From IMG/VR virus record IMGVR_UViG_3300035698_019051: a stretch of DNA of 46,675 nucleotides; one strand, written 5' to 3'. This stretch comes from a virus. The translations under genes and the position numbers were made by a program. Below, piece by piece: positions 13,142 to 24,978 of this stretch (the first letter of the stretch is position 1; each line of letters starts with the position of its first letter). The notes beneath the pieces are model-generated. The model did no database searches and was not told the origin of the DNA. It saw only the letters and a list, made by a program, of their open reading frames with translations.

Positions 13142-13602
13142 TAGTCGTCCTCGTGTTGATTAAAAGTCAAGATTGTCAATGACCCCGTAAACTTGGTATG
13201 CGAACTCCAAAGAACGGTCGAAATTATCGGACATATCACTCGCATTCTCGCCGCCATTGCCACCCCCTGACTTATCATACCAGCTATGGTGGCTTCTACC
13301 TCGCTACGGTTGTTGGCATTTAAAGTCCCCCCCGCCGCAAATGATAGCTTCCCAGTGCTAATCTTATAAACCATTTTATGCCTACCGTCGCCCATTCCAG
13401 ATACCACGTACACATGCACTATGTCATCTTCTCGTTTGTATGGGACAGCAAAATGAATTAATGGGCTGCTGTTGGGACTATATGGATGTAGCCAGCGATT
13501 AAGCCGATATGCATTGCATATCGTTGCGGCACGTAATTTGCCATCGGGGATTGCCATTCCTAACATTAGTCGTGTACCTTCATTCTGATGACCTTGCCCC
13601 AT
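13141..13602 (-). CDS. hypothetical protein
   Basis: 153-aa ORF coupled to the downstream gene. Confidence 0.5.
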   Translation of the reverse strand: MGQGHQNEGTRLMLGMAIPDGKLRAATICNAYRLNRWLHPYSPNSSPLIHFAVPYKREDDIVHVYVVSGMGDGRHKMVYKISTGKLSFAAGGTLNANNRSEVEATIAGMISQGVAMAARMRVICPIISTVLWSSHTKFTGSLTILTFNQHEDD

Positions 13603-14891
13603 TCGGGCTCGCTCTCTACATCCGTTGTTATTACGAACATAGCCGGGAAGTTCCGGGGGTGAGGCCAGTTACAGTAGCCGTCGGTGAGCATGACCATCAC
13701 GCTGCCGACTCCACTGTTCTCTTCCAACCACTCAACGGGAGCGGACATATCAGTGCCACCGCGTCCGCCGATTGTGATGCTCTTCCAGTCGCCTCGCCTA
13801 TATCGGTCGAAGCCCTGGAATTCGGCGTCCCATTGGAGAACGAACACCTTCGCTCTGTAGGAGATCGCCTCGATCTCAGCGAAGAACTGCTCCAACTCCT
13901 GGGTTCCGATTGACCCGGAGGTATCGACGATAACTGACACGGTGGCGGCTGCGTGCCTGCTGGTGCCCTTGAATCCGAATTTCTGCATTCGTCTGTTGGC
14001 TCGGGAGTACGTCTTCCGTTTATTGCCAACGTGGGTTCCCAAGAACTGCCTCAACACTTCACGCCATCTGACGATGGGCTTGGACAGTGCCTCAAGCACC
14101 TGTTTAAGGTGCCCCGGAACGTGCCCTTGCGACTTATTGGTGGCCTCTTTCACCATATCGTGAATGAGCTGCCTGGCCTCGTCCTGGGAGATTTCGGACT
14201 GGTTCCACACATCGTGGTCGTCTAGGGCTTTGCCCTCGTGATTGCCGTGCTGGTAGTAACCGGGCTTGCCGTTGCCCTGGCCTTCTCCCTCGCCCTCTCC
14301 CTCGCCTTCGCCTTCTTCGCCGTCGCCCTGACCTTGTCCTTGGCCCTGACCTTGTCCTTGGCCCTGACCTTGTCCTTGGCCCTGACCTTGTCCTTGGCCC
14401 TGACCTTGCTGACCGCCACTTTCGGCAATCTGGTCGTAGTAGGTTTCGGCGGACTCGCCGGTCGACCAGTTCTTGGGGACGAAGCACATCTTGTTATCGG
14501 GCAGGATCAGCGTTCCGTTTTCTTCTTTATAGCCGATGAATGGGGCACCCTGCTCGCCATTAACCGCCATGTCGGTGGCTATATTCCAGGCGTCGACTTC
14601 TCGCCCACCGGTTCGAACTGTATGCAGCCTCACAAGGTGGTTGATAACGTGCTCAATGACGCCGTATAGAACGCGGAGATCGGTCTTCTGAACCCACTCC
14701 GAGCTATAGAAGGCTTGAATCGCGCCGGTGCCATTGATCCGCATCCCGAGAGTACGTTTCTCAGGATCCTCCACCCAGGTCATTTCCGATTCCTTCCACT
14801 CGATGGACATTGCCATATGCCCATACCATGGTTCCCTGGTCATGAGGCGACATCGCGCTCTCATCAGTCTGTCTTCTGCTGTTTCTGCCAT
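13566..14891 (-). CDS. VWA-domain protein with N-terminal putative metallopeptidase-like domain and (GQ)17 linker
   Basis: C-terminal DxSGS MIDAS-like motif (VIVDTSGSIGT), which is VWA-like. The N-terminal histidine-rich helix region resembles the DUF2201_N-type partners of MoxR ATPases. The central stretch is GQGQ...GEGEGE. Confidence 0.7.
   Translation of the reverse strand: MAETAEDRLMRARCRLMTREPWYGHMAMSIEWKESEMTWVEDPEKRTLGMRINGTGAIQAFYSSEWVQKTDLRVLYGVIEHVINHLVRLHTVRTGGREVDAWNIATDMAVNGEQGAPFIGYKEENGTLILPDNKMCFVPKNWSTGESAETYYDQIAESGGQQGQGQGQGQGQGQGQGQGQGQGQGQGQGDGEEGEGEGEGEGEGQGNGKPGYYQHGNHEGKALDDHDVWNQSEISQDEARQLIHDMVKEATNKSQGHVPGHLKQVLEALSKPIVRWREVLRQFLGTHVGNKRKTYSRANRRMQKFGFKGTSRHAAATVSVIVDTSGSIGTQELEQFFAEIEAISYRAKVFVLQWDAEFQGFDRYRRGDWKSITIGGRGGTDMSAPVEWLEENSGVGSVMVMLTDGYCNWPHPRNFPAMFVITTDVESEPEWGKVIRMKVHD
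14271..14410. repeat. 18-nt tandem DNA repeat encoding (GQ)n/(GE)n
   Basis: ccttggccctgaccttgt unit repeated about 5 times, then a GAGGGC-type repeat. Confidence 0.8.
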
Positions 14892-14893
14892 TA

Positions 14894-15139
14894 TTATCCC
14901 TTACGCTGATTTATACGACGCTTTTTACTTCTTAAAACAAGAAACACTACGATACCCACAAACATACCTGCTCCGATCCATATTGCGTGCACTGGCCAAA
15001 CCATTGTGAGGATGAAAAGTGTGATTCCTATCCCCATCCCAAGAGCCGATCCCAGGAGGCACAATATCCTAAAACCAAATGCTCTGCAGGCTTGCTTGAA
15101 GGGAAGCTCCACGATTAATTTTCTGTCTGCCATTTTCAT
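14894..15139 (-). CDS. small membrane protein
   Basis: Hydrophobic helix; probable start at MKMADRK with AAGG upstream. Confidence 0.45.
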   Translation of the reverse strand: MKMADRKLIVELPFKQACRAFGFRILCLLGSALGMGIGITLFILTMVWPVHAIWIGAGMFVGIVVFLVLRSKKRRINQRKG

Positions 15140-15184
15140 TTTGTTGCCTTCGCTGCCTTCGAACTGGGGCACGATACACATACC

Positions 15185-15235
15185 GTCCCGCCAACGCGCC
15201 GTGCCGCGCCGCCGCAGCCGCGACAACTATGGTTC
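15185..15235 (-). promoter_or_regulatory. GC-rich upstream element copy
   Basis: GTGCCGCGCCGCCGCAGCCGCGACAACTATGG. Confidence 0.4.
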
Positions 15236-23255: not shown

Positions 23256-23524
23256 CCGCAGTCTAGTAAGGCCACGTTTTCTACGAATCCGTGAGCCTCA
23301 ACAATTGCCTTTACTTCAGGGATTTGGGCCTCATCGACGAATCGCTGAGACGTGATTAAGTAATCTTCACACAGTTCGCAGGTGTCCTGTAGTTCGTCCT
23401 GCAGAGCCGCGAACTTGTCTACATCCACGCCACCACGTAGCGTGTTATCGCTGATCGATTCTTCGGTCCCAAAGACCACCAATAGGCAATTACAAAACTC
23501 GTCCTTTTTTACTGCATACAACAT
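23246..23524 (-). CDS. hypothetical protein
   Basis: 92-aa ORF. Confidence 0.45.
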   Translation of the reverse strand: MLYAVKKDEFCNCLLVVFGTEESISDNTLRGGVDVDKFAALQDELQDTCELCEDYLITSQRFVDEAQIPEVKAIVEAHGFVENVALLDCGWG

Positions 23525-23540
23525 GATAGTCTCCGCATAA

Positions 23541-23573
23541 TTAAAAAAAGGGGCATCCCCCGGAAGGGATGCC
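23541..23573 (-). terminator. rho-independent terminator downstream of the MoxR gene
   Basis: Perfect 10-bp stem GGGGCATCCC/GGGATGCCCC, followed on the minus strand by TTTTTTT. Confidence 0.7.
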
Positions 23574-23613
23574 CCAGGAGAGGGGGTTAAGGCGGCGGGT
23601 GGCCTTGGCCAGT

Positions 23614-24978
23614 TTACTGCCCGTCAGCACCCTTACCCCACGCACACTTCGACACCAGTTTCTGCATTTCGGGATCTTCGTTCAGACGATCCGCGAAGGT
23701 TTTCTTCGCGGACTTGTCTCGGAATCGCCCGATCAGAGCCGCCACTGCCGGATTCGATACCAGTGCAGCACGTGCCTTGAGGTTGCTTCCGCCGACCATC
23801 AGGTTGCAGAAAGCAACTGCGATGTCCTTGTCCTTGCCCTCGGAAGCGAGGAACTTGGCGAAGTCCATTGCGACTTTGGCTCGTTTGTCGTCGTCCACCT
23901 TGCCCTTGAGGAAGGAGACGAGGCCCCAGCAGAGGCCGCTTTTCTGATTCCGGGACAGCTTCCGGAGTTGGGTTTTGTGTGCCGCCACGCCATCTTTGAT
24001 GAGCATTGCGGGGCGAACCGGGCAGTCGTATCGCGAGTAGGTCATTGCGGTTTCGCGTCCGATCAGACCAGCCAAGACACCCATTTTGGCCTCTTCGCTG
24101 TACTCGCCGACCTTGAAGGCCTGCTCGACGCGGACCACTGACTCCCAGGATCGCCTTGAAGGCTGAATCGAGAAGCCCATCTCGCCCTTGATATCGCCGT
24201 CAAGGTGCTTGGTGTTCTGCGATGCGAACTCGATGATGTTGGCTGCGGCTGCTCCGTGACGTGCAGATATCCAATCGACCCACTCTTCGAGGGTCAGCTC
24301 ACCACCATCAAGCGTCATGTGGGTGAACCTGTCCAGGAAGGCGGCGTCGGTGAAGCCGTTGGTCATGTAGCCTTCCATGAAGTTGCCGGCACAGACGATC
24401 GACCAGCCCTGCGGCAGGACGTATGCACCCAGCTGGTGATCCAGAACAAGCTGGAAGACAGCCTGCAGGACATCATCCTGAGCTCTGTTCAGCTCATCCA
24501 GGAACAGGATGCCTTCGTCCAGCATCGGCTGGTATTCAACCATTTTCCGGGCCAGTTCGTCGGCTTCGCGAAGGTGGTTGAGATTGGCCAACGCTCGGAC
24601 GGTTGCTCTGGGGTTAGTGGGGAGCGTCGGATCGACATCAAGCAAGGCATGCACTTGATCCTTGTTGCCGATCGCGTCCGCCAGGACTTTGAGGGGGTTC
24701 AGTTTTCCGATGTACTCCTCGTATGACATTCCGCCACGTGGCAGATCGGCAGGCGGCAAGAACCTGGTCACCATATTTTCCTTGTCCGCCAACGGCAGAC
24801 CCCTGAGGTCACTTGCCTCGTTCTGGCTCAGTCGCCAGTCTGAGAACCCAAGGTTGTTCTCTGTTGCAGTCTGCTCAGTAATCTGAGATTTACCGAGACC
24901 CCTGTGACCCCATATGAACGGGGTGATCAGAGATTGTCGGCAGAGCAGGATTGCTTGCTTCAACGGCAGAATTTTCAT
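23614..24978 (-). CDS. MoxR-family AAA+ ATPase
   Basis: Walker A GHRGLGKSQ, Walker B LFLDELNRA, and downstream sensor region typical of the MoxR/CbbQ/NorQ family; AGGAG SD. Confidence 0.8.
   Translation of the reverse strand: MKILPLKQAILLCRQSLITPFIWGHRGLGKSQITEQTATENNLGFSDWRLSQNEASDLRGLPLADKENMVTRFLPPADLPRGGMSYEEYIGKLNPLKVLADAIGNKDQVHALLDVDPTLPTNPRATVRALANLNHLREADELARKMVEYQPMLDEGILFLDELNRAQDDVLQAVFQLVLDHQLGAYVLPQGWSIVCAGNFMEGYMTNGFTDAAFLDRFTHMTLDGGELTLEEWVDWISARHGAAAANIIEFASQNTKHLDGDIKGEMGFSIQPSRRSWESVVRVEQAFKVGEYSEEAKMGVLAGLIGRETAMTYSRYDCPVRPAMLIKDGVAAHKTQLRKLSRNQKSGLCWGLVSFLKGKVDDDKRAKVAMDFAKFLASEGKDKDIAVAFCNLMVGGSNLKARAALVSNPAVAALIGRFRDKSAKKTFADRLNEDPEMQKLVSKCAWGKGADGQ

What the first reader, a model, noticed from the sequence alone, without database searches (positions are those of the whole stretch)
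13566..24978. MoxR AAA+ ATPase and its VWA/metallopeptidase-like partner are both present but 9 kb apart; VWA protein carries a (GQ)17-(GE)n linker
MoxR ATPases almost always sit beside a VWA-domain protein. Here the VWA protein (DxSGS MIDAS, DUF2201_N-like His-rich N-domain) is 9 kb downstream and separated by about 12 genes. The perfect 18-nt tandem DNA repeat encoding GQGQ... is recombination- and slippage-prone and may act as a flexible linker of variable length
Basis: partly seen in the sequence, partly recalled or inferred. Interest (0 to 1): 0.5.

Follow-up and report, generated by a model that had tools for sequence, protein, structure and literature searches.

The report
Split MoxR–VWA pair in jumbo phage
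A large bacterial virus carries a known two-protein remodelling machine (an ATP-driven ring and its metal-binding adaptor) whose genes have been pushed 8.7 kb apart by a fast-changing block of accessory genes, one of which is a bacterial-type copy of the major vault protein.

Summary
ORF 23614-24978(-) is a divergent MoxR-like AAA+ ATPase. ORF 13566-14891(-) is a DUF2201_N + DUF2201 VWA protein with a complete MIDAS motif. They are 8,722 nt and 13 ORFs apart. A perfect 18-nt x 4.7 repeat encodes (GQ)13, not 17, followed by (GE)5.

This pair is already described in jumbo phages (Iyer et al. 2021). In cultured phages and distant metagenomic relatives the genes are adjacent or nearly so. Across relatives the gap runs from 8 nt to 22.4 kb, always in the same order and on the same strand. 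About 83% of gap ORFs are unique to one contig. The split is therefore an accessory-gene island between two conserved anchor genes.

It is absent from the closest relative and shows no linkage to the pair in 80 other viral MVP loci.

This clade's VWA protein has lost the catalytic Glu of HExxH (HVINH) and the zinc-ribbon cysteines around the linker. Linker length runs from 9 to 131 aa across the family and differs between 93%-identical orthologues.

Most likely function: a NorQ/NorD-type chaperone with a non-proteolytic adaptor; its target is unknown. Interest is moderate.

The parts
23614..24978 (-). MoxR-like AAA+ ATPase, 454 aa. Walker A is aa 24-31 (nt 24886-24909). The helix-2 insert hairpin region is aa 49-80 (nt 24739-24834) and is the most conserved stretch. 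Walker B is aa 157-162. The pre-sensor-1 hairpin is about aa 181-190. Sensor-1 is N199. There is an extra helical insert at aa 86-152 and a long C-terminal helical domain at aa 230-447.
23550..23575 (-). Intrinsic-terminator-like hairpin (11-bp stem, 8 GC, then T7), 39 nt after the ATPase stop codon.
   Evidence: A hairpin sits at the same position in L097 (11401-11428) and, with an unrelated sequence, in L001 (9303-9336).
14892..23613 (-). Variable accessory-gene island between the two anchor genes. It holds 13 ORFs (92, 89, 146, 93, 87, 391, 861, 149, 209, 170, 137, 231 and 110 aa). Apart from the 861-aa ORF, none has a Pfam or PHROG hit.
   Evidence: no family hits; 102 of 123 gap ORFs across 11 loci have no counterpart in any other locus; three segments are present in the window and absent in the 75-86% nt-identical relative L097.
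18095..20680 (-). Major vault protein (MVP) homologue, 861 aa. It is cargo of the island, not part of the ATPase/VWA machine.
   Evidence: Pfam MVP_shoulder 3.3e-29 and Vault_3 2.4e-10. PDB MVP chains at E 3e-29, collinear (aa 473-768 against 466-754). More than 6,500 homologues, best 60% identity. Absent in L097. None of 80 viral MVP loci has the VWA gene within 10 kb.
18037..18070 (-). Intrinsic-terminator-like hairpin (15-bp stem) directly after the MVP stop codon and upstream of the 149-aa gene.
   Evidence: The same hairpin, with differing stem bases that still pair, is in L097 (13597-13630), which lacks MVP. An equivalent hairpin is in L001 (12590-12621).
13566..14891 (-). VWA adaptor protein, 441 aa: zincin-like N-domain, disordered linker, helical region, basic beta-hairpin, VWA domain.
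   Evidence: Pfam DUF2201_N and DUF2201. PHROG 1314 at 2.5e-66. AF2 model pLDDT 82.5. Foldseek hits to the VWA domains of Ro60, ITIH1, MDN1-MIDAS, integrin I domains and NorD.
14412..14891 (-). DUF2201_N zincin-like domain (aa 1-160). The HExxH position reads HVINH (aa 81-85, nt 14637-14651). H81, H85 and H90 are invariant; the catalytic Glu is lost.
   Evidence: 96 of 131 homologues have HExxH, and 35, including the window, L001 and L097, have no Glu.
14268..14423 (-). Low-complexity linker ESGGQQ(GQ)13GDGEE(GE)5GQGNG (aa 157-208). The perfect 18-nt x 4.7 tandem repeat lies at 14325-14408.
   Evidence: pLDDT <50 for aa 162-205. Family linker length 9-131 aa, median 66. L097 has a 12-nt x 15.8 array at this position instead.
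13956..14027 (-). Conserved basic beta-hairpin GNKRKTYSRANRRMQKFGFKGTSR (aa 289-312), immediately before VWA strand beta-1. It is a candidate 'finger' that enters the ATPase pore.
   Evidence: R292, T294, R297, G309 and S311 are identical in all 131 homologues; R300, R301, F305 and G306 in 127-130 of them. The model shows a hairpin at E292-299/E304-311. The analogy is to the NorD finger (PMC13036017). The role is inferred.
13581..13946 (-). VWA domain (aa 316-437) with MIDAS residues DTSGS (aa 323-327, nt 13911-13925), T380 and D404.
   Evidence: DTSGS in 129 of 131 homologues. GGT is invariant, and TDG is kept in 130 of 131 (one has SDG), with the D invariant. Pfam DUF2201 at 2.7e-21.

Best explanation
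The window is part of a large, probably jumbo, bacteriophage genome. The two genes are the phage MoxR-type AAA+ ATPase and its VWA adaptor, a pair already recognised in jumbo phages.

Why they are apart. They were ancestrally adjacent and keep the same order and strand. In this lineage the space between them has become a landing site for fast-turning-over accessory genes, which here add up to 8.7 kb. The MVP homologue is one of these cargo genes.

How the machine most likely works (inferred by analogy with NorQ/NorD and CbbQ/CbbO):
1. The ATPase forms a hexameric ring.
2. Its conserved, acidic helix-2-insert loops grip the invariant basic beta-hairpin that precedes the VWA domain.
3. The MIDAS site binds an acidic residue of a target protein.
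4. The N-terminal zincin-like domain provides a second hold.
5. ATP-driven rotation pulls on the flexible tether between the two domains and remodels the target.

In this clade the zincin domain keeps its three His residues but has lost the catalytic Glu. It has also lost the zinc-ribbon cysteines that flank the linker in most relatives. The adaptor is therefore probably non-proteolytic.

The GQ/GE tract is a disordered tether with little constraint on length. It expands and contracts by replication slippage or unequal recombination.

A conserved terminator directly after the ATPase gene may set an excess of ATPase over adaptor (6:1 in NorQD). This is inferred.

The target is unknown. A phage-encoded large assembly is the leading guess.
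For: Identity of the pair:
- Pfam and PHROG hits.
- MIDAS is near-invariant in 131 homologues.
- The ATPase model shows a helix-2 insert and a pre-sensor-1 hairpin. Its best structural neighbours are NorQ, CbbQ, CHU_0153 and RavA, together with dynein, midasin, MCM and BchI.
- The pair is described in jumbo phages in PMC7824862.

Phage origin:
- Relatives lie on IMG/VR contigs of 100-408 kb.
- There are no PADLOC hits.

Ancestral adjacency and the island:
- The pair is adjacent in Vibrio phage BUCT194. It is one gene apart in phiTE and two small genes apart in MIF8.
- In metagenomic relatives the gap is 8 nt, 37 nt, about 250 nt, 485 nt, 608 nt, 1.4, 2.2, 4.5, 4.6, 4.6, 7.4, 7.9, 8.7, more than 9.2 and 22.4 kb. 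The ATPase is always upstream on the same strand.
- 102 of 123 gap ORFs are singletons.
- The collinear relative L097 (ATPase 90%, VWA 93% aa identity) lacks MVP and two other segments.
- At least 30 contig lengths, some only 4-9 kb, appear in both the top-120 ATPase and top-120 VWA homologue lists, which implies co-occurrence on the same contigs.

Selection on the pair:
- Between the window and L097 the ATPase (90%) and VWA (93%) are among the best-conserved genes. Gap genes are 54-80% identical.

Mechanistic analogy:
- The NorQD cryo-EM work shows a finger in the pore, helix-2-insert contacts and a force-bearing linker between the N-domain and VWA.
- Here the hairpin at aa 289-312 is invariant and basic.
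- The ATPase helix-2-insert stretch holds 13 invariant residues, including E54 and D57.

Linker:
- It is disordered in the model and runs from 9 to 131 aa across the family.
- It is built from a different repeat unit in L097.
- The window's GQ run of 13 is the longest of the 131 sequences.

Loss of catalysis:
- 35 of 131 homologues lack the Glu, and 33 of those also lack CxxC pairs. Of the 96 HExxH members, 72 have at least two CxxC pairs.

Terminators.
Against: - The ATPase fails the curated Pfam thresholds for AAA_5 and AAA_3. It has no sequence-level PDB match, even as a profile.
- No physical interaction, hexamer or finger-in-pore contact could be tested. AlphaFold-Multimer was not available.
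- Two strong terminators lie between the genes, so co-expression is not guaranteed.
- No structural (virion) genes are in the window. Phage origin rests on relatives and on gene style.
- The pair sits among ligase and nucleic-acid genes rather than structural genes. This fits poorly with the published virion-assembly proposal and leaves the target open.
Confidence: 0.7

Rival explanations
1. The genes between the ATPase and the VWA gene are not random cargo. Together with the pair they form one functional module. In this reading the MoxR-VWA chaperone assembles or loads a vault-like shell built from the phage MVP, echoing eukaryotic vaults, whose minor proteins PARP4 and TEP1 carry VWA domains and an NTPase.
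For: - MVP lies inside the bracket in two lineages (window and L001) at the same relative position: after the ATPase and just before the terminator and the 149-aa gene.
- The window and L001 MVPs are each other's closest relatives at 60% identity, which suggests inheritance within the bracket.
- The best Foldseek hits for the VWA protein are Ro60, a TROVE+VWA protein related to TEP1.
- A second SPFH-family protein is encoded nearby at 29219-30250.
Against: - None of 80 IMG/VR MVP loci has the VWA gene within 10 kb, and only one has a weak ATPase-like hit.
- The closest relative L097 keeps the ATPase (90%) and VWA (93%) but has no MVP.
- The contig carrying P0126 (ATPase 71% identical) has no 800-aa gene in its gap.
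- Most pair-bearing contigs have no MVP within 10 kb.
- The other gap ORFs are almost all singletons.
- The Ro60 matches are weak (E about 4e-4, TM about 0.2) and mainly reflect the shared VWA fold.
Confidence: 0.07
2. The pair has been functionally uncoupled in this lineage. After the split, and after loss of the catalytic Glu and the zinc ribbon, the VWA protein is a decaying or repurposed remnant that no longer works with the ATPase.
For: - The genes are in separate transcription units, with strong terminators after the ATPase and after MVP.
- The HExxH Glu and the linker cysteines are lost specifically in the clade with large gaps.
- The pure dipeptide runs are unusually long.
Against: - Both proteins are among the most conserved genes between the window and L097 (90% and 93%).
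- MIDAS, the basic hairpin and the three His residues are fully retained.
- The N-domain is predicted with pLDDT above 90.
- Gene order and strand are conserved across gaps from 8 nt to 22 kb.
- Some relatives keep HExxH at a 4.6-kb gap (L095). L091 lacks the Glu but keeps the cysteines. Decay is therefore not simply tied to separation.
- A terminator is also annotated directly after the MoxR gene in phage phiTE, where the pair is nearly adjacent.
Confidence: 0.1
3. The region is not phage. It is a bacterial MoxR-vWA conflict or defence island of the kind described by Kaur et al. 2020, or a prophage remnant carrying host genes.
For: - MoxR-vWA modules are common in bacterial conflict systems (PMC7159879, listed).
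- The nearest MVP homologues outside this lineage are annotated in bacterial MAGs such as Desulfobacterales, Eremiobacterota and Riflebacteria.
- The window has no recognisable virion genes.
Against: - Both proteins match phage-specific PHROGs strongly.
- Relatives sit on IMG/VR viral contigs of 100-408 kb.
- Cultured phages (N4-like, phiTE-like, jumbo) carry the pair.
- There are no PADLOC hits for 10 proteins.
- The window is a dense, almost unidirectional array of small ORFans with a phage-type NAD-dependent ligase (PHROG 3869, 2.6e-112) and no tRNA or rRNA genes.
Confidence: 0.05

Closest known systems
Jumbo-phage MoxR AAA+ ATPase / vWA cochaperone with an N-terminal metallopeptidase domain (Iyer, Anantharaman, Krishnan, Burroughs and Aravind 2021, Viruses 13:63; PHROG 1297 + PHROG 1314)
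   Same: Same two families and the same domain architecture: AAA+ ATPase, then DUF2201_N zincin-like domain, linker and VWA. Same gene order. The hosts are large phages.
   Different: Here the genes are 8.7 kb apart rather than adjacent. The HExxH Glu is replaced (HVINH), so the 'peptidolytic processing' proposed for the family is unlikely in this clade. The zinc-ribbon cysteines of the linker are lost. The pair lies among ligase and nucleic-acid genes, not virion genes.
NorQ/NorD and CbbQ/CbbO (bacterial MoxR-VWA remodelling chaperones)
   Same: The ATPase's best structural matches are NorQ and CbbQ. The partner has an N-domain, a flexible linker and a VWA domain with MIDAS, plus a protruding hairpin next to the VWA domain. 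The likely stoichiometry and finger-in-pore mechanism are inferred from PMC13036017.
   Different: There is no detectable sequence similarity to either. The ATPase is about 200 aa longer, with a helical insert and a large C-terminal helical domain. The adaptor's N-domain is zincin-like rather than NorD- or CbbO-like. The linker is pure low-complexity sequence with length variation from 9 to 131 aa, whereas in NorD both length and specific regions matter. The target is not a metalloenzyme known from the neighbourhood.
Acidianus two-tailed virus p618 (MoxR) / p892 (VWA) tail-development chaperones (cited in PMC7824862)
   Same: A virus-encoded MoxR-VWA pair thought to remodel viral assemblies.
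   Different: It is an archaeal virus, it has no peptidase-like domain, and homology was not tested here. The comparison rests on the literature only.
Major vault protein: eukaryotic vault shell, bacterial homologues (bioRxiv 10.1101/872010) and two gut-phage MVPs (bioRxiv 10.1101/2023.11.10.566534)
   Same: The 861-aa gap protein has Vault_3 and MVP_shoulder domains and aligns collinearly with rat and human MVP from repeat 9 through the shoulder and cap helix. Its length equals that of rat MVP. It is 45-49% identical to hundreds of bacterial-MAG proteins.
   Different: It is encoded in the variable island of an environmental large phage. No PARP4, TEP1 or vault-RNA counterpart was detected (Rfam: none). 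Whether it forms a vault is unknown.

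Membership tests
MoxR-type AAA+ ATPase (helix-2-insert / pre-sensor-1-hairpin superclade) | Walker A (GxxGxGK[ST]), Walker B (hhhhDE), sensor-1 Asn and conserved arginines | tested here: met
   GHRGLGKS at aa 24-31, ILFLDE at aa 157-162, N199, R217 and R276. All are invariant in 29 homologues.
MoxR-type AAA+ ATPase (helix-2-insert / pre-sensor-1-hairpin superclade) | Beta-hairpin inserted in helix 2 and a beta-hairpin before sensor 1 | tested here: met
   The AF2 model (pLDDT 84) shows strands 61-65/70-74 after helix 55-59, and a short hairpin at about aa 181-190 before strand 191-199. This was read from the DSSP string, not from coordinates.
MoxR-type AAA+ ATPase (helix-2-insert / pre-sensor-1-hairpin superclade) | Closest structural neighbours are MoxR proteins | tested here: met
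MoxR-type AAA+ ATPase (helix-2-insert / pre-sensor-1-hairpin superclade) | Passes a curated sequence model of the family (Pfam AAA_3 PF07726 or AAA_5 PF07728) | tested here: not met
   AAA_5 gives E 0.023 and 15.1 bits against a cut-off of 22. There is no AAA_3 hit, no NCBIfam hit, and no PDB sequence or profile hit. Some homologues carry precomputed PF07728 hits.
MoxR-type AAA+ ATPase (helix-2-insert / pre-sensor-1-hairpin superclade) | Works with a VWA/MIDAS partner encoded nearby | tested here: met
   The VWA gene lies downstream on the same strand in 17 related contigs and 3 cultured phages, at 8 nt to 22.4 kb; one further contig (L087) shows none within the 9.2 kb available. Physical interaction was not tested.
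MoxR-type AAA+ ATPase (helix-2-insert / pre-sensor-1-hairpin superclade) | Hexameric ring with ATPase activity | not testable with these tools
   This needs biochemistry or a multimer prediction.
VWA domain with MIDAS | DxSxS motif plus downstream Thr and Asp metal ligands | tested here: met
   D323-T-S325-G-S327, T380 (GGTD) and D404 (LTDG). DTSGS occurs in 129 of 131 homologues, and the T and D are invariant.
VWA domain with MIDAS | Rossmann-like VWA fold and family model | tested here: met
   Pfam DUF2201 at 2.7e-21 and 76 bits against a cut-off of 26. The model's C-terminal domain matches the VWA domains of Ro60, ITIH1, MDN1-MIDAS, integrin I domains and NorD.
Zincin metallopeptidase (Pfam DUF2201_N, 'putative metallopeptidase domain') | Family model hit | tested here: met
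   PF13203 at 3.9e-23 and 82.9 bits against a cut-off of 23.2.
Zincin metallopeptidase (Pfam DUF2201_N, 'putative metallopeptidase domain') | HExxH with the catalytic Glu | tested here: not met
   The window has HVINH at aa 81-85. 96 of 131 homologues have HE..H; 35, including the window, L001 and L097, do not. The window protein should therefore not be filed as an active metallopeptidase.
Zincin metallopeptidase (Pfam DUF2201_N, 'putative metallopeptidase domain') | Metal-ligand histidines retained | tested here: met
   H81, H85 and H90 are invariant in 40 aligned homologues. Zinc binding itself was not tested.
Major vault protein | MVP repeat, shoulder (SPFH-like) and cap-helix architecture in one protein of about 850-900 aa | tested here: met
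   Vault_3 at aa 474-517 and MVP_shoulder at aa 529-645. The alignment to PDB MVP chains is collinear, aa 473-768 against 466-754, at E 3e-29, with a weak hit to repeats 299-368. The protein is 861 aa.
Major vault protein | Assembles into a 39-fold half-vault shell | not testable with these tools
It needs expression and EM.

The most novel reading that the evidence does not exclude
The ATPase...VWA bracket may be a dedicated, lineage-wide 'cargo slot' of a group of large environmental phages, in which counter-defence or host-takeover genes are swapped between two conserved anchor genes. One such cargo, a full-length bacterial-type MVP with its own terminator, could build vault-like protein shells inside infected bacteria. 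It might be helped by the flanking MoxR-VWA chaperone, whose adaptor has given up proteolysis for pure binding.
Probability: 0.1. Interest if true: 0.75.

Novelty: new variant of a known kind. Interest (0 to 1): 0.4.

Why it matters
The MoxR-VWA(zincin) pair is widespread in large phages (N4-like, rV5/phiTE-like and jumbo), and no function has been tested experimentally. This window adds three points.

1. The pair tolerates separation by up to 22 kb while keeping order, strand and strong sequence conservation. Adjacency is therefore not a safe criterion for finding MoxR partners, and the interval can serve as a marker for a variable accessory-gene island.

2. A whole clade has lost the catalytic Glu and the zinc ribbon of the adaptor while keeping MIDAS and the basic hairpin. 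This argues that binding and remodelling, not proteolysis, is the core activity.

3. The linker between the adaptor's two domains is almost free to vary in length. This is a useful contrast to NorD, where linker length is critical.

Separately, a full-length MVP gene that is present or absent between close phage relatives offers a simple natural comparison for asking what prokaryotic and viral MVPs do.

Tried and rejected
- **Nucleotide search of the region against 50,697 phage records.** No match. The phage is not close to any deposited genome.
- **Exact-protein look-up of the window MVP.** Not on record.
- **Sequence and profile searches of the ATPase against PDB.** Nothing, even at E 10. 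The clade assignment had to rest on predicted structure.
- **PDB sequence search with the VWA protein.** It returned only low-complexity artefacts from the GQ/GE tract: S10, cruciferin and GR20. These were rejected.
- **NCBIfam.** No meaningful hits.
- **PHROG and Pfam on 12 of the 13 gap ORFs and several flanking ORFs.** No hits apart from MVP. The functions of the island genes remain unknown.
- **'MVP is functionally linked to the pair'.** Tested by tblastn on 80 viral MVP loci and rejected.
- **'Ro60/TROVE-like RNA-binding adaptor linked to vaults'.** Raised by the Foldseek top hits. Rejected as over-reading, because the matches are weak and mainly reflect the shared VWA fold.
- **'RNA-repair link'.** Considered because a 216-aa ligase-like gene recurs upstream of the ATPase. 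It is only lineage synteny, and it sits on the other side and opposite strand in L094/L096. Left as a note.
- **Rfam scan for vault RNA, Y RNA or other RNAs.** None found.
- **PADLOC.** No hits.
- **PHROG 1314's label 'HNH endonuclease'.** It has propagated into several GenBank annotations of this gene. It is contradicted by the Pfam domains and was disregarded.
- **The 108-aa ORF 17782-18108(-).** Probably not a gene, because the MVP terminator hairpin lies inside it.
- **Two contexts that came without DNA.** These are the contigs carrying P0126 and P0133. Only their gene tables could be used.

Full report
**1. What is in the sequence**

Almost all long ORFs in the window are on the minus strand.

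ORF 23614-24978(-) encodes 454 aa. It has a Walker A motif (GHRGLGKS) and a Walker B motif (ILFLDE).

ORF 13566-14891(-) encodes 441 aa. It hits Pfam DUF2201_N ('putative metallopeptidase domain', 3.9e-23) and DUF2201 ('VWA-like domain', 2.7e-21). Its MIDAS residues are all present: DTSGS at aa 323-327, T380 and D404.

The two proteins match PHROG 1297 ('ATPase', 2.4e-52) and PHROG 1314 (2.5e-66). PHROG 1314 carries the label 'HNH endonuclease', which the Pfam domains contradict.

The ATPase stop and the VWA start are 8,722 nt apart, with 13 non-overlapping ORFs between them.

TRF reports a perfect 18-nt x 4.7 repeat at 14325-14408 inside the VWA gene. Read from the DNA, the linker is ESGGQQ(GQ)13GDGEE(GE)5GQGNGK.

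**2. Is the ATPase MoxR-like?**

Sequence models are weak:
- Pfam AAA_5 reaches only E 0.023, below threshold.
- NCBIfam gives nothing.
- PDB gives no hit, even with a 29-sequence profile.

An AlphaFold2 model built on that alignment has mean pLDDT 84. Its secondary-structure string shows a hairpin after helix 2 (strands 61-65 and 70-74) and a short hairpin before the sensor-1 strand. These are the marks of the helix-2-insert / pre-sensor-1-hairpin superclade, which contains MoxR, dynein/midasin, MCM and the chelatases.

JGI names several homologues 'MoxR-like ATPase', and phiTE's orthologue is annotated MoxR.

I accept 'MoxR-like, divergent'. The family's curated sequence models are not passed.

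The protein is about 200 aa longer than NorQ or CbbQ. It has a helical insert (aa 86-152) and a large C-terminal helical domain.

**3. The pair is already known**

Iyer et al. [quoted passage not shown] They propose a role in virion assembly with proteolytic processing, by analogy with the ATV MoxR-VWA proteins.

tblastn finds the two proteins in 307 and 419 phage records at about 23-25% identity. These include N4-like phages, phiTE-like phages and jumbo phages.

**4. Why the genes are apart**

In cultured phages the genes are adjacent or nearly so:
- In Vibrio phage BUCT194 the ATPase gp093 is followed at once by gp092. That gene is annotated 'HNH endonuclease', but Pfam shows DUF2201_N + DUF2201.
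- In phiTE one HNH gene intervenes.
- In MIF8 two small genes intervene.

The closer metagenomic family (39-90% ATPase identity) lies on IMG/VR and other contigs of up to 408 kb. The distance from ATPase end to VWA start in these contigs is:

| Locus | Gap |
|---|---|
| L092 | 8 nt |
| L093 | 37 nt |
| L104 | about 250 nt |
| L094/L096 | 485 nt |
| L088 | 608 nt |
| L090 | 1.4 kb |
| L108 | 2.2 kb |
| P0126 contig (gene table only) | about 3.7 kb |
| L089 | 4.5 kb |
| L095 | 4.6 kb |
| L097 | 4.6 kb |
| L001 | 7.4 kb |
| L091 | 7.9 kb |
| window | 8.7 kb |
| L087 | more than 9.2 kb |
| L086 + L109 (same 341-kb contig) | 22.4 kb |

Order and strand never change.

Of 123 ORFs found in these gaps, 102 have no counterpart in any other locus.

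The blocks outside the bracket are syntenic. Upstream lie the ligase-like 216-aa gene and the ATPase. Downstream lie the VWA gene and the 256-aa and 112-aa genes.

The closest relative is L097 (GCA_024712125.1). It is collinear at 75-86% nt identity, with the ATPase 90% and the VWA 93% identical at the protein level. It lacks three window segments inside the gap: 22220-22962, 18088-20882 and 16083-17417.

The split is therefore explained by a hypervariable accessory-gene island between two conserved anchors. Outgroup comparison indicates that adjacency is ancestral.

**5. Transcription signals**

A strong hairpin followed by a T-run sits 39 nt after the ATPase stop (23575-23550, minus strand). 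A second sits directly after the MVP stop (18070-18037).

Both positions are conserved in L097 and L001. After the ATPase the L001 hairpin has an unrelated sequence. At the second position L097's stem differs at bases that still pair, even though L097 lacks MVP. phiTE also has an annotated terminator after its MoxR gene.

I infer that the ATPase is a separate, or attenuated, transcription unit. This would suit a 6:1 ATPase-to-adaptor ratio. It is not shown.

**6. The adaptor protein in detail**

The AF2 model has pLDDT 82.5. It contains:
- a confident N-domain (aa 1-160);
- a disordered linker (aa 162-205, pLDDT <50);
- a helical region;
- a hairpin (aa 292-311);
- a VWA domain.

Foldseek matches the VWA part to Ro60, ITIH1, MDN1-MIDAS, integrin I domains and NorD.

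Findings across 131 homologues:
- MIDAS is near-invariant.
- The hairpin GNKRKTYSRANRRMQKFGFKGTSR has R292, T294, R297, G309 and S311 identical in all 131 sequences, and R300, R301, F305 and G306 in 127-130 of them.
- 96 sequences have HExxH (mostly HEIEH). 35, including the window (HVINH), L001 (HCINH) and L097, have no Glu. H81, H85 and H90 stay invariant.
- 72 of the 96 HExxH members carry two or more CxxC pairs flanking the low-complexity tract, forming a split zinc ribbon of the pattern CPxCGRP...CPxCGQ. 33 of the 35 Glu-less members have none.
- Linker length is 9-131 aa, median 66. It is usually built of GK, GQ and GE/GD dipeptides.

The window's GQ run of 13 is the longest of all. L097 instead has (GQ)7(GE)13(GQGE)5, built from a 12-nt x 15.8 array. 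L001 has only (GQ)4.

The tract is therefore a hypervariable tether, and the perfect DNA repeat marks a very recent expansion. Other proteins in the window also carry tandem-repeat-encoded low-complexity segments: (AAKATKE)3 at 41570-41627 and (EP)n at 40368-40412.

**7. Most likely mechanism (inferred)**

The NorQ/NorD cryo-EM work (PMC13036017) shows four things:
- A finger protruding from the VWA domain enters the pore of the MoxR hexamer and contacts the helix-2 inserts.
- The adaptor's N-domain docks on the ring.
- The linker between the N-domain and the VWA domain is stretched as ATP hydrolysis rotates the VWA domain.
- MIDAS or the linker engages the target.

The phage pair has the same parts list:
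- The ATPase's most conserved stretch is the helix-2-insert region (aa 47-80), with 13 invariant residues including E54 and D57.
- The adaptor has an invariant basic hairpin next to the VWA domain, an intact MIDAS site, an N-domain and a flexible linker.

I therefore propose a NorQD-like remodelling chaperone. Its adaptor is non-proteolytic in this clade.

The target is unknown. The genomic setting includes an NAD-dependent DNA ligase, an ATP-dependent ligase-like protein and an S1-domain protein, and DNA polymerase sits next to the pair in N4-like phages. This does not particularly favour virion assembly.

**8. The MVP homologue**

ORF 18095-20680(-) encodes 861 aa. It hits MVP_shoulder (3.3e-29) and Vault_3 (2.4e-10). 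It aligns collinearly with rat and human MVP in PDB (E 3e-29).

It has more than 6,500 homologues. The best is 60% identical (L001's phage). The rest are 45-49% identical and are mostly in bacterial MAGs.

Bacterial MVP homologues and two gut-phage MVPs have been reported in preprints. The IMG/VR scan found 248 viral contigs with relatives.

I tested whether MVP is functionally tied to the pair:
- None of 80 viral MVP loci has the VWA gene within 10 kb, and only one has a weak ATPase-like hit.
- L097 and the P0126 contig keep the pair without MVP.

MVP is therefore cargo of the island. It was probably acquired once by the common ancestor of the window and L001 lineages, since it sits at the same position just upstream of the conserved terminator and the 149-aa gene, and was later lost in some lines.

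No Rfam RNA, including vault RNA or Y RNA, is present.

**9. Verdict**

The finding is real but largely explained.
- The pair is a known phage module.
- The split is an accessory-island insertion.
- The linker is a hypervariable tether.

New details are the continuum of gap sizes, the Glu-less and Cys-less clade of adaptors, and the MVP cargo that is present or absent between close relatives.

No PADLOC defence models match. Phage origin is well supported by relatives but is not proven from the window itself, which has no virion genes.

Noticed in passing
window 18095-20680 (-): An 861-aa major vault protein homologue (Pfam MVP_shoulder 3.3e-29, Vault_3 2.4e-10; PDB MVP E 3e-29) lies between the ATPase and VWA genes. 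It is 60% identical to the MVP of a syntenic phage contig (L001) and is absent from the closest relative, L097. 248 IMG/VR viral contigs encode relatives.
   Followed up: yes
window 29219-30250 (-): A second SPFH/Band_7-family protein of 343 aa (Pfam Band_7 2.5e-5; PHROG 200 'lipoprotein' 2e-11) lies about 8.5 kb upstream of the MVP gene. The MVP shoulder domain is itself SPFH-like.
   Followed up: no
window 23550-23575 (-) and 18037-18070 (-); L097 11401-11428 and 13597-13630; L001 9303-9336 and 12590-12621: Two strong terminator-like hairpins are conserved in position across three phages. The one after the ATPase has an unrelated sequence in L001. The one after MVP persists in L097, with stem differences that still pair, although L097 has no MVP.
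   Followed up: partly
window 26049-26699 (-): A 216-aa protein consists only of an ATP-dependent DNA/RNA-ligase nucleotidyltransferase domain (Pfam DNA_ligase_A_M 1.2e-10). It recurs near the ATPase gene in L001, L086, L091, L094/L096, L097, L101 and L102. This could be lineage synteny or a functional link; which is unresolved.
   Followed up: partly
window 36214-38274 (-): A full-length NAD-dependent DNA ligase (PHROG 3869, 2.6e-112). It is syntenic in L097, L101 and the contigs carrying P0126 and P0133.
   Followed up: no
window 27051-27308 (-): A small ORF is 84% identical to a stretch of L097 (7436-7615) overlapping a 62-aa gene (7463-7651) that carries a precomputed CsrA (PF02599) hit. 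The same family is listed in the contig carrying P0126. This suggests a phage-encoded CsrA-like RNA-binding regulator.
   Followed up: no
window 40121-41407 (-) and 41404-41988 (-): An S1 RNA-binding-domain protein has an (EP)n acidic tract (TRF 40368-40412). The neighbouring ORF has a perfect 21-nt x 2.8 repeat encoding (AAKATKE)3 (41570-41627). Repeat-encoded low-complexity linkers are common in this genome.
   Followed up: partly
PHROG 1314; GenBank records NC_070848.1 gp092, NC_071039.1, NC_019526.1 and others: The DUF2201_N + VWA adaptor family is labelled 'HNH endonuclease' or 'homing endonuclease' in PHROGs and in many phage annotations. Pfam shows no HNH domain. This looks like a propagated mis-annotation.
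   Followed up: partly
window 17782-18108 (-): This 108-aa ORF overlaps the MVP stop codon and contains the MVP terminator hairpin. It is probably not a gene.
   Followed up: partly
L097 15936-15964: The L097 orthologue of the VWA protein starts MAETAAETAADRL because of a perfect 12-nt x 2.4 duplication at the 5' end of the gene. This is a second slippage event in the same gene.
   Followed up: no
window 25216-26094 (-): A 292-aa protein directly upstream of the ATPase gene has a weak DnaJ-type CXXCXGXG zinc-finger hit (E 3e-4, below threshold). It is conserved in L097 (69%) and weakly in L001.
   Followed up: no
window 20761-21936 (-) and 17510-17959 (-): Apart from MVP, these are the only gap genes shared by several relatives. 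The 391-aa family is in L097 and L086/L101. The 149-aa family is in L001, L097 and L086. Neither has any family hit.
   Followed up: partly
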